Position numbers and translations under genes: made by a program. The notes beneath the pieces are model-generated. The model searched no databases and was not told the origin of the DNA. It saw nothing but the letters and a program-made list of their open reading frames with translations. This document shows positions 1 to 4,384 of a DNA stretch of 4,384 nucleotides, one piece after another; the first letter of the stretch is position 1, and each line of letters starts with the position of its first letter. Origin of the DNA: a virus (taxonomy: Duplodnaviria > Heunggongvirae > Uroviricota > Caudoviricetes); the IMG/VR virus record IMGVR_UViG_3300022758_000081, positions 1 through 4,384 of that record; one strand, given 5' to 3'.

Positions 1-1096
1 GCCGGGATTCTGGAACTCTCCGTGAAATGCAACATGGGCGATCCGGATAACGATTTCTTCGAGCTTCGTGCAGATGACCTGCGTGATGAGCGTTCTTACC
101 GTCGCCGCATCCAGGCATCCGCCGAAAAAACTGGCGAATAACATTGAGTCAGCAATTGCCAAACAGGCAACCGAAATGGGCTCACTTGTTGTTCACGATA
201 CCCGCGCAATTGGTCCATCTACTGGCCTGTCTGGCTGGGATTTTGTGTCTGATGCAGAGCGCCTGATGTTCTCCCGTGAGCTAAACCGCGATATGGGCAT
301 CAGTTACTTCCTGAACCCTGACGATTACCGCAAAGCAGGCCGCAACCTGGTAGATGGTGACATCTTTGGGCGCGTTCCTGAAGACGCGTATCGCAACGGT
401 ACTATTCAGCGTCAGATTGCTGGCTTTGATGAAATTCTTCGCTCACCGAAACTTCCGGCAGTTACCAAGTCAACCGCTACTGGTGTAACTGTTTCTGGTG
501 CGCAGAAGTTTAAGCCGCAGGCATACACTCTTGATACCGATGGTAACAAAGAGAACGTCGACAACCGTGTTGCAACTGTGACCGTATCCTCCACCACCGG
601 GTTTAAGCGCGGCGACAAAATCAGCTTCACTGGTGTGAAATTCCTGTCTCAGATGGCGAAGAACGTGCTGACTGATGATGCTACTTTCTCAATCACCCGT
701 GTGATCGATGGTACTCACATCGAAATCACGCCGAAGCCGATTGCACTGGATGACGCGTCACTGACAAAAGAAGAGAAGGCTTACGCTAACGTAAACACCT
801 CTCTTGCTGATACCACTCCGGTAAACGTTCTGAACGTGGCAACAACCACCGCTAACGTGTTCTGGGCTGATGACTCAATCCGACTGCTGTCTCAGCCTAT
901 CCCGGTAACCCATGAGCTGTTTGCTGGCATGAAAACGTCTTCCTTCAGCATTCCTGGTATTGGTGTTAACGGCATCTTCGCAACGCAGGGTGATATCAAC
1001 ACTCTGTCTGGTAAGTGCCGTATTGCTGTGTGGTATTCAGCATGTGCTGTACGACCAGAGGCAATTGGTGTTGGTCTGCCTAACCAGACTGCGTGA
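1..1096 (+). CDS. P22-like major capsid (coat) protein, gp5 family; 5'-partial and interrupted by a +1 nt frameshift
   Basis: Frame 1 from the window start translates [38 protein letters not shown], which matches the P22 coat protein as I recall it (..[33 protein letters not shown]). That frame stops at TAA 139-141. Coat homology (KKLANNIE...EMGSLV...[10 protein letters not shown]...GDKISF.GVKFL.QMAKNVL...[12 protein letters not shown]) resumes in frame 2 and runs to TGA 1094-1096. The frame switch maps to the A6 run at 125-130. The ORF-track start at GTG 68 is internal, not the real start. Confidence 0.88.
2..22. repeat. Left copy of a 21-bp perfect inverted repeat (CCGGGATTCTGGAACTCTCCG) shared with the right window terminus
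   Basis: Direct comparison: the reverse complement of 4364-4384 is identical to 2-22, and similarity stops abruptly at the inner boundary. The repeat lies inside the coat ORF (encoding GILELS). Confidence 0.85.
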
Positions 1097-1104
1097 TAAC
1101 CAGA

Positions 1105-1126
1105 GGGAGCTTCGGCTCCCTTTTCT
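1105..1126 (+). terminator. Putative intrinsic (rho-independent) terminator/attenuator downstream of the coat gene
   Basis: Perfect 6-bp GC-rich stem GGGAGC (1105-1110) / GCTCCC (1115-1120) with a TTCG tetraloop (1111-1114), followed by TTTTCT (1121-1126), starting 9 nt after the coat stop codon. Partial terminators after the highly expressed coat gene are a known feature of tailed-phage late operons. Confidence 0.6.
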
Positions 1127-1139
1127 ATTGGAGATACCA

Positions 1140-1727
1140 ATGAGCGTAATGATTTTTCAGGCTGGCGGAGATACCAAAATCTGGGGGCGCAAGCTGAAAA
1201 CGAAAACCGTTGATCCTGATGATGTAGCTGTGCACTTAGCAAATGGCTGGTATAAGCACCCTGACGATGTTCCTGATGATCCTCTTGTTGGTGATCAAAT
1301 TGGGAGTGTTGGCGGAGGTGAAACTTCCCCAGTTGATATGGGCGAAGTGTCCGACGGTTATCACACTTTTAACGAGCTTTACGCTCACCGAGTGCGCCTC
1401 TTCTCATCGCTGATGCATGCTTACGCTGAGCTTTCGTGGTGGTCTCGCAAACACAGTGACGGTGAAGAGTGGGATGGCTGGATCATTGCTGGTATCACCA
1501 CTCCAGAAGGCGAAATCACTTATCACCTACCTGTTGAAGAAATCGAGTTCCTTCCTGAAGGTACTGAGCTTGAGTTCGGGAAAGAGTGGGATGGTCATGA
1601 AGCAAATGATGTTCTTGGACGACTCCTGAGTTTGCGTCCGGCCATTGCAGAGCCAGAAGAAAAACAGCGTAAAAAGCCTGGTCGAAAACCTAAGGCGGCA
1701 GCAGATGAACCTGACAACGAAGGGTGA
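1140..1727 (+). CDS. Hypothetical acidic protein (195 aa) between the coat and gp4 genes; function unknown, possible moron
   Basis: ATG 1140-1142 preceded by GGAG at 1130-1133 (6-nt spacer); open to TGA 1725-1727. The product is visibly Asp/Glu-rich ([53 protein letters not shown]) with a short basic C-terminal tail ([11 protein letters not shown]). Its 3' end overlaps the gp4 start by 23 nt. I do not recognise the family. Confidence 0.6.
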
Positions 1728-2316
1728 TTTAGTTCTTGCGGCATTACGTAAGCTCGGTGTGGCATCAAATGCCACGTTAACCGATGTCGAACCGCAGTCT
1801 ATGGAAGACGGCGTCAACGACCTTGAAATGATGATGGCTGAATGGCTTGGCGGTGATGCGTCACCTGGGATCAACGTTGGCTACATTTTTGCTGATGCAG
1901 ATGTCGCTCCGGATCCGGGCGATGAACACGGTTTATCAAATAACGCTATCAATGCCGTTATTTTCAATCTTGCCTGCCGCATTGCTCCAGATTATGCGCT
2001 GGAAGCGTCTGCAAAACTTATAACCACTGCCAGATACGGGAAAGAGCGACTCGTCAAACTGTCTGCAATGGACAGAGCAAAAGCCGCTAAATGTAAGTCC
2101 GGTTATCCAAACCGTATGCCTGTTGGTAGCGGTAACCAGTTGGCGAAGTGGAACGGTTGGAATTACTTCCACCGAAAGAACCTTGCGATAACGGGAGCGA
2201 ATAATGCCGATTCAGCAACTTCCGCTCATGAAAGGTGTCGGCAAAGACTTCCGAAATGCCGACTATATCGACTATCTACCAGTGAATATGTTGGCTACAC
2301 CCAAAGAAATCCTTAA
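1705..2316 (+). CDS. P22 gp4-like head completion / portal-binding tail accessory factor; 3' end uncertain (possible frameshift)
   Basis: ATG 1705-1707; the N-terminal region [33 protein letters not shown]...[14 protein letters not shown] matches my recollection of P22 gp4. As read, the frame runs 112 nt into gene 10 and ends in an Arg/Cys-rich tail ([15 protein letters not shown]...) that looks like out-of-frame read-through. A TAA at 2202-2204 in the -1 frame would give a TAATG stop-start overlap with gene 10. Confidence 0.72.
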
Positions 2317-3620
2317 CAGCAGCGGATATCTTCGCTCATTCCCGGGCATTGCCAAACGCTCTGATGTAAACGGTGTATCGCGCGGAGTCGAGTACAACAT
2401 GGCGCAGAATGCTGTTTATCGCGTGTGTGGTGGGAAGCTTTACAAAGGCGAAAGCGAAGTCGGTGACGTCGCCGGAAGTGGTCGCGTATCAATGGCGCAT
2501 GGTCGGACATCTCAGGCTGTAGGTGTTAATGGTCAACTGGTCGAGTATCGCTATGATGGCACGGTTAAAACCGTCTCAAACTGGCCTACAGACAGCGGAT
2601 TCACACAGTACGAGTTAGGTTCAGTTCGCGACATTACGCGCTTACGTGGGCGTTATGCGTGGTCAAAAGACGGAACTGATTCATGGTTTATCACTGACCT
2701 TGGAGACGAATCGCACCCTGACCGATACAGTGCACAATATCGTGCCGAGTCTCAGCCTGACGGTATTATCGGCATCGGAACATGGCGAGACTTCATCGTC
2801 TGCTTTGGTTCATCGACGATTGAATATTTCTCCCTGACTGGTGCAACCACAGTTGGTGCTGCTTTGTATGTCGCACAGCCATCGCTGATGGTGCAAAAAG
2901 GCATCGCCGGGACTTACTGCAAACGCCGTTTGCTGATTCCTATGCGTTTATCAGCAATCCGGCAACAGGTGCGCCGTCTGTATACATCATCGGCTCCGGT
3001 CAGGTGTCACCAATTGCCAGCGAGAGCATTGAGAAATCCTCCGCTCCTACACTGCTGATGAACTGGCTGATGGTGTGATGGAATCGCTGCGGTTTGATGC
3101 TCATGAGTTGCTGATTATCCACCTTCCTCGCCATGTTCTCGTGTACGACGCATCTTCAAGCGCCAATGGTCCGCAATGGTGTGTACTGAAAACAGGCTTG
3201 TATGACGATGTGTACCGCGCTATCGACTTCATTTACGAAGGAAATCAGATAACGTGCGGCGATAAGCTGGAATCGGTGACCGGGAAATTGCAGTTCGATA
3301 TCAGCAGTCAGTATGGGCTTCAACAGGAACACCTGCTGTTTACTCCACTGTTCAAAGCGGATAACGCCAGATGCTTCGATCTGGAGGTGGAATCATCCAC
3401 TGGCGTAGCTCAGTACGCCGACCGCCTGTTCCTCTCTGCAACCACTGACGGCATAAATTATGGGCGTGAGCAGATGATTGAGCAGAATGAACCGTTCGTT
3501 TACGACAAACGCGTTTTGTGGAAACGAGTAGGGCGCATCAGGAAAAACATTGGTTTCAAATTGCGCGTTATCACGAAGTCACCTGTCACTCTGTCTGGCT
3601 GCCAGATAAGGATTGAGTAA
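2204..3620 (+). CDS. P22 gp10-like tail accessory factor (head completion / tail hub protein), interrupted by two -1 nt frameshifts
   Basis: ATG 2204-2206 with GGGAG at 2193-2197. [49 protein letters not shown]... closely matches P22 gp10 as I recall it. Homology runs in frame 2 to about 2920, frame 1 from 2923 to 3033 ([38 protein letters not shown]), and frame 0 from 3033 to TAA 3618-3620 ([39 protein letters not shown]...LSGCQIRIE). The ORF-track pieces 2204..3058 and 3075..3620 are fragments of this one gene. The stop overlaps the next ATG as TAATG (3618-3622). Confidence 0.88.
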
Positions 3621-3757
3621 TGGCGGATTCGAATCTCAATGTGCCGGTAATCATTCAGGCTACACGGCTAGACACATCAGTCCTTCCACGCAATATCTTC
3701 TCGCAGTACATCTGCCCGTGGCGGAATTTGCGCGCAGCGAACGATGTGACGCACTGA
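3620..3757 (+). pseudogene. Remnant of the P22 gp26-like tail needle gene: N-terminal ~30 codons only
   Basis: ATG 3620-3622 is translationally coupled to gp10. [28 protein letters not shown] matches the gp26 N-terminus as I recall it ([28 protein letters not shown]). Similarity ends at about codon 29-30 (near 3705-3712). The frame then reads unrelated sequence ([17 protein letters not shown]) to TGA 3755-3757. No frame downstream encodes the expected coiled-coil needle shaft. Confidence 0.7.
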
Positions 3758-4038
3758 ACGGTGGTGTTAGTCAGAATGTATCGCCAGAACGCCAGCCCGA
3801 TTTCCTTGCTGAAGCCGCGAATCTCTGGCAGGTACATGGCGTGGCAATCGAATGTCAGCGGCTGAATCTCCTGATAGTAAACAATGCCGCCGAACTGCCC
3901 GTGCACGTTCACCTCAAAGTAACGGCAATCAGGTTTGTAGTCGTATCCATCACCGTTGTTGCTCCCGGCGATAATGTCAGGGTGATTTCCTACTGCTTCG
4001 ATCAGGTCGATGTTTCGCGTTGGTTTGAACTGAATCAT
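3655..4038 (-). CDS. Hypothetical protein (127 aa), unknown function; convergent with the late operon
   Basis: Start ATG is the complement of 4036-4038, with GGAG about 7 nt upstream on the minus strand. It overlaps the upstream gene's TAA as TAATG. Codon choice in the sampled core (aac ggt gat tac gac aaa cgt gtg) looks like genuine enterobacterial coding sequence, whereas the in-register plus-strand ORF 3613..4095 uses rarer codons (agg, gta). The last ~17 codons are antisense to the gp26 remnant and use rare codons (agg, gga, ata), so the native C-terminus is probably lost or altered. Confidence 0.55.
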
Positions 4039-4384
4039 TACTGCTCCGCGATTATCTTGATGGTTGTGGCAGTAAACGCCGCACCATTTGACTGAATGGT
4101 TAACGTACTGCCATTTGTGGCAAGAAAGCCGTCTTTATCCACGCTGAAGAACGTAGCTAACAGGATGTTGTCGGTTGTTGTCGCCGCATTACGACTGCTG
4201 ACCAGTGTGTCAGGAACAGAGCCGGAAAAGGTTAGCTGCATTGACCTGTTTGCGGTTCCGCTGGGCCACGTCCCGACGATCGACAGCTTGAAGAACAAGG
4301 TTTTGTTCTCGTTGAACACAACCATCTTGTTGTTAACGGTGTCGAAGAATGGTGCCAACGTGCCGGAGAGTTCCAGAATCCCGG
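4038..4384 (-). CDS. Hypothetical protein, C-terminal portion only (the gene continues beyond the right edge of the window); Thr/Ser/Asn-rich, beta-type sequence
   Basis: The minus-strand frame is open from the window edge (..GILELSGTLAPFFDTVNNKMVVFNENK...GSTLTIQSNGAAFTATTIKIIAEQ) to a TAA that is the complement of 4038-4040. The TTG at 4356-4358 reported by the ORF track is not a real start. The composition resembles a fibre, adhesin or receptor-binding domain, but I recognise no family. Its first visible codons lie in the 21-nt terminal inverted repeat. Confidence 0.5.
   Translation of the reverse strand, partial: GILELSGTLAPFFDTVNNKMVVFNENKTLFFKLSIVGTWPSGTANRSMQLTFSGSVPDTLVSSRNAATTTDNILLATFFSVDKDGFLATNGSTLTIQSNGAAFTATTIKIIAEQ
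4364..4384. repeat. Right copy of the 21-bp perfect inverted repeat (reverse complement of 2-22)
   Basis: CGGAGAGTTCCAGAATCCCGG at 4364-4384 is the reverse complement of 2-22. It is read in the same frame (GILELS) by the minus-strand terminal ORF. Confidence 0.85.

What the first reader, a model, noticed from the sequence alone, without database searches (positions are those of the whole stretch)
121..141. +1 nt frameshift in the coat gene at an A6 homopolymer
Coat homology switches from frame 1 to frame 2 at the A6 run 125-130. Frame 1 ends at TAA 139-141 only 4 codons later. Removing one A restores a continuous coat reading frame (..[22 protein letters not shown]..). A phage cannot tolerate a broken major capsid gene, so this is either a sequencing or assembly homopolymer error or a genuinely inactivated prophage gene.
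Basis: seen in the sequence. Interest (0 to 1): 0.5.

Follow-up and report, generated by a model that had tools for sequence, protein, structure and literature searches.

The report
Coat-gene frameshift in an error-ridden contig
The broken capsid gene is real in this sequence, but it is one of four single-base frameshifts and at least two scrambled joins found in no related phage, so it is most likely a sequencing or assembly artefact and is of no biological interest.

Summary
The window is the late structural module of a P22-like (Lederbergvirus) E. coli phage or prophage: coat (3' three quarters), a WDGH gene, gp4, gp10 and the first 88 nt of the tail needle. The coat frame does switch from frame 1 to frame 2 at 124-130, and frame 1 stops at TAA 139-141. 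The A-run is not expanded, however. 131 relatives in the panel read GCC-AAAAAA-CTG (A-K-K-L), also A6. The window's extra base is G124.

The frameshift is not isolated. Three more private 1-nt deletions break gp4 (GG>G, 2178) and gp10 (A4>A3 at 2921-2923 and at 3034-3036). At 3702-3707 the sequence folds back onto the reverse strand of gp14 and the needle. The last 21 nt are an inverted copy of window 2-22.

The window has 4 private indels against 1 private substitution. Twenty intact relatives have 0 private indels against 80 private substitutions (Fisher p = 2.5e-6). None of the indel alleles or junctions occurs in any collection searched.

Best explanation: a low-quality, chimeric contig (about 0.8). 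Rival: a genuinely decayed, rearranged prophage (about 0.18). Programmed recoding is rejected.

The parts
1..1096 (+). 3' three quarters of a P22-type major coat gene (equivalent to P22 gp5 residues about 68-430). It is split between frame 1 (1-141) and frame 2 (about 124-1096).
   Evidence: After repair it matches Pfam PF11651 at E 3.7e-137 and P22 coat PDB 2xyy/5uu5 at E 5.4e-179, residues 69-430. It is 98.4% nt identical to phages IME10 and Louie and 99.4% to L126.
124..124 (+). The surplus nucleotide (G) that causes the +1 nt frameshift.
   Evidence: All relatives lack it: GCC-AAAAAA-CTG. None of 217 complete E. coli genomes with this site matches better than 70/71 with one gap. There are 0 exact matches to the window allele in viral, genome or metagenome contigs.
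125..130 (+). A6 run, at its native length. It encodes K-K in the intact gene.
   Evidence: 131 relatives have A6 and 2 draft contigs (L007, L033) have A5. It is the only run of 6 or more in the repaired 3.7 kb.
139..141 (+). Premature TAA reached in frame 1, five codons after the insertion.
   Evidence: Translation.
1140..1727 (+). Intact WDGH-domain accessory gene between coat and gp4.
   Evidence: PF25311 at E 1.3e-39. It is 100% nt identical to intact prophages, and the exact protein is listed in 290 collection blocks.
1705..2203 (+). gp4 (tail accessory factor) gene with a private 1-nt deletion (native GG, single G at 2178). The deletion replaces the last 9 codons and makes the ORF read on to 2316.
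   Evidence: 0 relatives have the window allele and 83 have the native one. Against L126 there are 0 mismatches and 1 gap over 500 nt. Repair gives 166 aa matching PF11650.
2204..3620 (+). gp10 (packaged-DNA stabilisation protein) gene with two private 1-nt deletions (native A4, A3 at 2921-2923; native A4, A3 at 3034-3036). It also carries the only private substitution, C>A at 3023.
   Evidence: 0 relatives have either window allele, while 75 and 86 have the native forms. Repair gives 472 aa matching PF11134 at E 1.8e-298.
3620..3707 (+). First 88 nt of the tail-needle (gp26-type) gene. Native homology ends at 3707.
3702..3707 (.). Junction 1: a 6-nt microhomology (CGCAGT) where the + strand needle gene (nt 88) is joined to the reverse strand of gp14/DUF2824 (nt about 337). 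This is an inverted join that skips about 1.1 kb.
   Evidence: It is absent from viral, metagenome and genome contigs. No E. coli record spans it among 655 records. The chimeric ORF product is not on record.
3702..4038 (-). First about 112 codons of the DUF2824 (P22 gp14-type) gene, in inverted orientation.
   Evidence: PF11039 at E 2.2e-43, profile positions 2-113 of 151. blastn to L004 on the minus strand.
4038..4367 (-). C-terminal knob of an Sf6-type tail needle, in inverted orientation.
   Evidence: PF16532 at E 1.3e-71, profile positions 67-175 of 175..
4364..4384 (-). Junction 2 (microhomology TCCG at 4364-4367) followed by an inverted copy of coat positions 2-22. Together with 2-22 it forms a perfect 21-nt terminal inverted repeat.
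   Evidence: The native needle gene reads ...GTCATCCGGCACG... and has no such 21-mer. The junction has 0 matches in viral contigs.
1..1 (+). A private G where 97 of 97 relatives have A. Native coat homology therefore begins exactly where the terminal inverted repeat begins.

Best explanation
The window is a short, low-quality, chimeric contig or read from an otherwise ordinary and intact P22-like (Lederbergvirus) E. coli phage or prophage of the L126/L129 lineage. The extra G at 124 is a base-calling or consensus insertion error next to the A6 run. It belongs with three single-base deletions at short homopolymers in gp4 and gp10. The strand-switching joins at 3702-3707 and 4364-4367 are chimeric junctions made during amplification, library preparation or assembly. 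The underlying phage very probably has a normal coat gene reading ...IQASAKKLANN....

Shown: the indels and junctions are private to this sequence, and the ratio of indels to substitutions is abnormal. Inferred: the cause is technical. No reads are available.
For: 1. All four indel alleles are absent from every relative: 0 against 131, 83, 75 and 86 loci with the native forms. The coat allele is also absent from 217 complete E. coli genomes and from viral, genome and metagenome contigs.

2. Leave-one-out control: 20 intact relatives have 80 private substitutions and 0 private indels over the same 3.7 kb. The window has 1 private substitution and 4 private indels (Fisher p = 2.5e-6).

3. The spontaneous substitution-to-indel ratio in E. 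coli K-12 is 10-12:1 (PMC6330053, Table 1). Four or more indels among 8 changes has p = 0.002-0.004.

4. The other distinctive substitutions (577, 1968, 2767) are synonymous third-position changes shared with the intact prophages L126 and L129. gp4 differs from L126 only by the deletion, and the WDGH gene is 100% identical to intact prophages. There is therefore no sign of relaxed selection.

5. Repairing four bases restores full-length coat, gp4 (166 aa) and gp10 (472 aa).

6. There are two non-native junctions with 6-nt and 4-nt microhomology, one of them inverted with an intervening deletion. The contig also ends in a 21-nt inverted copy of its own start. The junctions were found nowhere else. 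This matches the description of amplification chimeras: over 85% are inverted with intervening deletions, and priming occurs at 2-21 nt of complementarity (PMC1855051).

7. The same A6 run is miscalled as A5 in two draft contigs, one of which has another 1-nt indel in its portal gene.
Against: No reads, quality values or platform information are available, so the error is inferred and not seen.

The coat lesion is an inserted G beside the run, not a change in run length, so it is not the textbook homopolymer-length miscall.

Real cryptic prophages do accumulate frameshifts and rearrangements. A mismatch-repair-deficient host would raise the share of indels: with an indel fraction of 0.2, P(4 or more of 8) = 0.056.

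I could not find the source record, so I cannot tell whether the contig is flanked by host DNA.
Confidence: 0.8

Rival explanations
1. This is a genuine, recently inactivated and rearranged P22-like prophage remnant. Real mutations (+G in coat, -1 in gp4, two -1 in gp10) and real microhomology-mediated rearrangements have destroyed the morphogenesis module, possibly in a mutator host.
For: Four essential structural genes are broken and the needle/gp14 region is inverted and partly deleted. Decaying prophages look like this in outline. Real slippage mutations also favour homopolymer contexts (PMC6330053). With a mutator-like indel fraction of 0.2 the 4-of-8 excess is only marginally unlikely (p = 0.056).
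Against: At natural E. coli rates, four neutral indels should come with roughly 40 or more substitutions, most of them nonsynonymous. The window has one private substitution. Twenty relatives show 80 private substitutions and no indel. gp4 is otherwise identical to an intact allele. Three of the four indels lie in very short runs (G2, A4, A4), while five A5, T5 or G5 runs in the same 3.7 kb are untouched. No independent assembly carries any of the alleles or junctions. The contig ends in a 21-nt inverted copy of its own start, with position 1 non-native, which looks technical.
Confidence: 0.18
2. This is a functional gene expressed by recoding. Either transcriptional slippage on the A6 run (loss of one A in the mRNA) or a +1 ribosomal frameshift restores the coat frame.
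For: An A-run lies at the exact frame-switch point, and loss of one A from the transcript would give an in-frame coat (...SAEKLANN...).
Against: The frameshifted arrangement is conserved in none of the homologues: 0 of 131 panel loci and 0 of 217 E. coli genomes. A -1 slip would enter the wrong frame. No +1 shifty-codon-plus-stop motif is present at 124-141 (from the sequence). From general knowledge, A6 is too short for efficient RNA-polymerase slippage, and a major capsid protein is needed in hundreds of copies per virion. The neighbouring gp4 and gp10 are also broken at non-slippery sites, which recoding cannot rescue.
Confidence: 0.01

Closest known systems
Intact P22-like prophages in E. 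coli assemblies GCA_949281575.1 (L126) and GCA_907165475.1 (L129); phages IME10 and Louie
   Same: They have the same gene order: coat, WDGH, gp4, gp10, needle. L126 is 98.2% identical over window 2-3715, with coat 99.4%, gp4 at 0 mismatches and WDGH 100%. They share the window's distinctive synonymous variants at 577, 1968 and 2767.
   Different: They have uninterrupted coat (431 aa), gp4 (166 aa) and gp10 (472 aa), and a collinear needle-to-DUF2824 region on one strand. None has G124, the three deletions or the junctions.
Salmonella phage P22 coat protein gp5 (PDB 2xyy, 5uu5)
   Same: The repaired window protein aligns to residues 69-430 at E 5.4e-179 and matches Pfam PF11651.
   Different: P22 reads SAARKLANN where the E. 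coli lineage reads SAKKLANN. The window's reading frame breaks at the residue-109 equivalent.
Amplification (MDA-type) chimeras as described by Lasken and Stockwell 2007 (PMC1855051)
   Same: Junction 1 is an inverted join with an intervening deletion of about 1.1 kb and a 6-nt microhomology. Junction 2 has a 4-nt microhomology. Both fall within the described 2-21 nt range.
   Different: Nothing shows that the sample was amplified. Junction 2 joins sequences in the same orientation, which is the minority class. The resemblance is in form only.
Homopolymer-associated indel errors of flow-based or long-read sequencing
   Same: Three of the four indels are losses of one base from a run (GG, AAAA, AAAA), and the fourth abuts the only A6 run. 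Substitution errors are nearly absent.
   Different: The coat lesion is an inserted G, not a change in run length. The platform is unknown.

Membership tests
P22 coat protein family (Pfam PF11651) | Sequence match above the curated cut-off | tested here: met
   The repaired translation scores 458 bits against a cut-off of 24, covering profile positions 70-422 of 423. It matches P22 gp5 in the PDB at E 5.4e-179.
P22 coat protein family (Pfam PF11651) | One uninterrupted ORF of about 430 codons | tested here: not met
   As it stands, the frame breaks at 124 with a stop at 139-141. The 5' end (about 67 codons) lies outside the window.
Programmed frameshift or transcriptional slippage site | The frameshifted arrangement is conserved among homologues | tested here: not met
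   0 of 131 panel loci and 0 of 217 complete E. coli genomes carry it. There are 0 exact matches in three public collections.
Programmed frameshift or transcriptional slippage site | A slippery motif suited to the required direction (+1, or loss of one A from the RNA) | tested here: not met
   By inspection of 121-141. There is no shifty codon followed by a stop or rare codon at the switch point. A -1 slip gives the wrong frame. From general knowledge, A6 is shorter than the runs known to give efficient slippage.
Homopolymer-length sequencing error | Run length differs from that of close relatives | tested here: not met
   This row concerns the coat site. A6 is present in both the window and the relatives, and the surplus base is G124.
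Homopolymer-length sequencing error | Run length differs from that of close relatives (the other three indels) | tested here: met
   GG>G at 2178, A4>A3 at 2921-2923 and A4>A3 at 3034-3036. None occurs in any relative.
Homopolymer-length sequencing error | Discordant or low-quality reads at the site | not testable with these tools
   No reads or quality values are available, and the source record was not found.
Chimeric (amplification or assembly) junction | A join of non-adjacent or inverted genome segments at a short microhomology, unsupported elsewhere | tested here: met
   Junction 1 has CGCAGT and is inverted. Junction 2 has TCCG. Both are absent from all collections searched.
Decaying prophage pseudogene | Relaxed selection: private, largely nonsynonymous substitutions accompanying the indels | tested here: not met
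   The window has 1 private substitution against 4 private indels. Relatives have 80 substitutions against 0 indels. gp4 is otherwise identical to an intact allele.
Decaying prophage pseudogene | Integrated in a host chromosome and reproducible in independent sequencing | not testable with these tools
   The window holds no host DNA, and no second copy was found in any collection.

The most novel reading that the evidence does not exclude
The extra base is real and the coat protein is still made, by loss of one A during transcription of the A6 run or by +1 ribosomal frameshifting. That would make this a recoded major capsid gene in a P22-like phage.
Probability: 0.01. Interest if true: 0.5.

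Novelty: not a real feature. Interest (0 to 1): 0.04.

Why it matters
It matters only as quality control. Taken at face value, this contig would add false pseudogenes for coat, gp4 and gp10, a false fused DUF2824 ORF and a false inversion to any catalogue of prophage decay or recoding sites.

It also shows that a frameshift next to a homopolymer need not be a change in run length. Counting the A's alone would have wrongly 'validated' the sequence.

If the lesions proved real, the result would be an ordinary dead prophage, which is still of low interest.

Tried and rejected
1. I searched for it explicitly and found 0 in the panel and 0 in IMG/VR. Rejected in favour of GCC-AAA-AAA-CTG.

2. Locating the source, or an independent copy. 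Exact-pattern scans for the coat allele in viral, genome and metagenome contigs found nothing. Scans for junction 1 and junction 2 also found nothing. Exact-product look-ups of the frameshifted gp10 and gp4 ORFs and of the chimeric DUF2824 ORF found nothing.

3. Recoding. Rejected on lack of conservation, on the wrong geometry for a -1 slip, and because neighbouring genes are also broken.

4. A mis-join at a repeat in a de Bruijn graph. The microhomologies at the junctions (6 and 4 nt) are far too short for a k-mer collision, so the junctions must have been present in reads or molecules. However, the perfect 21-nt inverted ends, together with the non-native position 1, suggest that the contig was cut at a hairpin or palindrome in an assembly graph. 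I could not settle which assembler behaviour produced this.

5. My first count of four private substitutions was too high. Three of them are shared with L126 and L129 once those loci were added.

6. The 'private deletion' flagged at about 1646 is an alignment-edge effect at the WDGH presence/absence boundary. It appears for most relatives too and is not a real difference.

Full report
WHAT IS IN THE WINDOW. The 4384 bases carry the late structural module of a P22-like (Lederbergvirus) phage or prophage of E. coli. The + strand holds the 3' three quarters of the coat gene (1-1096), a WDGH-domain gene (1140-1727), gp4 (1705-2203), gp10 (2204-3620) and the first 88 nt of the tail-needle gene (3620-3707). 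Megablast finds 96-98% identical DNA in phages IME10, Louie and others. It also finds matches in 1254 of 5426 complete E. coli genomes, always ending near window 3707. Pfam confirms each gene once the frames are repaired: PF11651, PF25311, PF11650 and PF11134. The repaired coat aligns to P22 gp5 residues 69-430 at E 5.4e-179.

CHECK OF THE OBSERVATION. The coordinates are right. A6 lies at 125-130, frame 1 reads ...[13 protein letters not shown] with TAA at 139-141, and the coat homology continues in frame 2 to the native stop at 1094-1096. There is one surplus nucleotide and nothing downstream compensates for it.

The diagnosis of an expanded A-run is wrong. Base-by-base alignment shows that relatives read GGCATCCGCC-AAAAAACTGG. 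With ten further loci added, the count is 131 native against 0. Among the 217 complete E. coli genomes that hold the site, the best match is 70/71 with one gap. The A-run therefore has its normal length. The surplus base is G124, and the native peptide is ...IQASAKKLANN..., at the position of P22 residue 109.

THE FRAMESHIFT IS NOT ALONE. The same alignments show three more single-base deletions private to the window.
- GG>G at 2178 rewrites the last 9 codons of gp4 and runs the ORF on to 2316.
- A4>A3 at 2921-2923 breaks gp10.
- A4>A3 at 3034-3036 breaks gp10 again, so the gene is split into ORFs 2204-3058 and 3075-3620.

None of these alleles occurs in any relative: 0 against 83, 75 and 86 loci with the native forms. 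Restoring the four bases gives a continuous coat, a 166-aa gp4 and a 472-aa gp10. These are exactly the sizes found in ten independent genomes that encode the identical WDGH protein.

THE CONTIG IS ALSO CHIMERIC. Native needle homology stops at 3707. From 3702 the sequence is the reverse complement of DUF2824/gp14 (its first 337 nt or so), followed by the C-terminal knob of the needle back to about nt 520. In every relative these genes lie downstream on the same strand. The join shares the 6 nt CGCAGT.

At 4364-4367 (shared TCCG) the reverse-strand needle sequence is joined to a reverse-complement copy of coat positions 22-2. As a result the window ends in a perfect 21-nt inverted repeat of its own start. 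The native needle gene has no such 21-mer. Position 1 is a G where 97 of 97 relatives have A, so coat homology begins exactly at the repeat boundary.

Junction 1 is absent from viral, metagenome and genome contigs and from all 655 matching E. coli records. Junction 2 is absent from viral contigs. The fused ORF that junction 1 creates is not on record.

ERROR OR REAL DECAY? The key test is the balance of private indels against private substitutions. Against about 130 relatives, the window has four private indels and one private substitution (C>A at 3023, 11 nt from one of the deletions), or two substitutions if position 1 is counted. The three other distinctive substitutions are synonymous third-position changes shared with the intact prophages L126 and L129.

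I ran the same analysis on 20 intact relatives, leaving each out in turn. It gave 80 private substitutions and no private indel (Fisher p = 2.5e-6). Mutation-accumulation data for E. coli K-12 give 10-12 substitutions per small indel (PMC6330053, Table 1). Under that spectrum, four indels among eight changes has p = 0.002-0.004. Four neutral indels should also come with some 40 substitutions, most of them nonsynonymous.

Instead, gp4 is identical to an intact allele apart from the deletion, and the WDGH gene is 100% identical to intact prophages. The genes look as if they were under selection until the moment they were sequenced. The junctions have the form described for amplification chimeras: mostly inverted with an intervening deletion, primed at 2-21 nt of complementarity (PMC1855051). 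The same A6 run is miscalled as A5 in two draft contigs, one of which has another 1-nt indel in its portal gene.

VERDICT. The most likely explanation (about 0.8) is a technical artefact: a low-quality, chimeric contig of an otherwise normal phage of the L126/L129 lineage. That the lesions are private and the indel excess is abnormal is shown. The technical cause is inferred, because no reads are available and the source could not be found.

A genuinely decayed and rearranged prophage, perhaps in a mutator host, remains possible (about 0.18). With an indel fraction of 0.2 the excess is only marginal (p = 0.056).

Programmed recoding is rejected (about 0.01). The arrangement is conserved in no homologue, a -1 slip gives the wrong frame, there is no +1 motif, A6 is short for slippage, and gp4 and gp10 are broken as well.

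NOVELTY AND INTEREST. This is not a real biological feature, or at best an ordinary dead prophage. Interest is very low. The useful result is the correction: the extra base is G124 and not an extra A, and the whole contig is unreliable.

Noticed in passing
window 2178; 2921-2923; 3034-3036: Three further private 1-nt deletions (GG>G in gp4; A4>A3 twice in gp10) break two more essential structural genes. They are absent from all relatives.
   Followed up: yes
window 3702-3707: A fold-back junction joins the needle gene at nt 88 (+ strand) to the reverse strand of DUF2824/gp14 at nt about 337, at a 6-nt microhomology (CGCAGT). It creates false ORFs at 3620-3757 (+) and 3655-4038 (-). It was found in no public collection.
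   Followed up: yes
window 2-22 and 4364-4384; position 1: There is a perfect 21-nt terminal inverted repeat. The right-hand copy is coat sequence joined to reverse-strand needle sequence at TCCG. Position 1 (G) is non-native, since 97 of 97 relatives have A. This suggests the contig was cut at a hairpin or palindrome, but the exact origin is unresolved.
   Followed up: partly
window 1140-1727: An intact WDGH-domain gene (PF25311) occupies the gap between coat and gp4. Only about a quarter of the panel relatives carry it, so this is a variable accessory slot. RefSeq annotates only a 315-nt ORF here in some genomes (L001, L004) but a WDGH protein in others.
   Followed up: partly
window 1103-1122: A GC-rich hairpin (GGGAGC-TTCG-GCTCCC) followed by TTTTCTATT lies just after the coat stop codon. 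The centroid fold is -14.4 kcal/mol with z = -1.9. It is a likely intrinsic terminator or attenuator that the simple consensus scan did not list.
   Followed up: partly
L007 495-522; L033 3076-3103 and about 1021: Two IMG isolate-derived contigs have A5 in place of A6 at the same coat run, giving a -1 frameshift. L033 also has a 1-nt insertion in its portal gene. The A6 run is therefore a recurrent indel site in draft assemblies.
   Followed up: partly
L002 3210-3737; L129 4073-4588; L130 8506-9051; L131 1018-1518 and 7207-7791: Relatives carry HNH or NUMOD4 homing-endonuclease genes at different positions in the same module: between scaffold and coat, terminase and portal, and gp10 and needle. 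In L131 one follows a 34-aa gp10 fragment and precedes a full gp10. The window has none.
   Followed up: no
window 3023: The only private substitution (C>A, Ala>Glu in the repaired gp10) lies 11 nt from the deletion at 3034-3036. That is a small cluster of differences, consistent with a locally poor consensus.
   Followed up: partly
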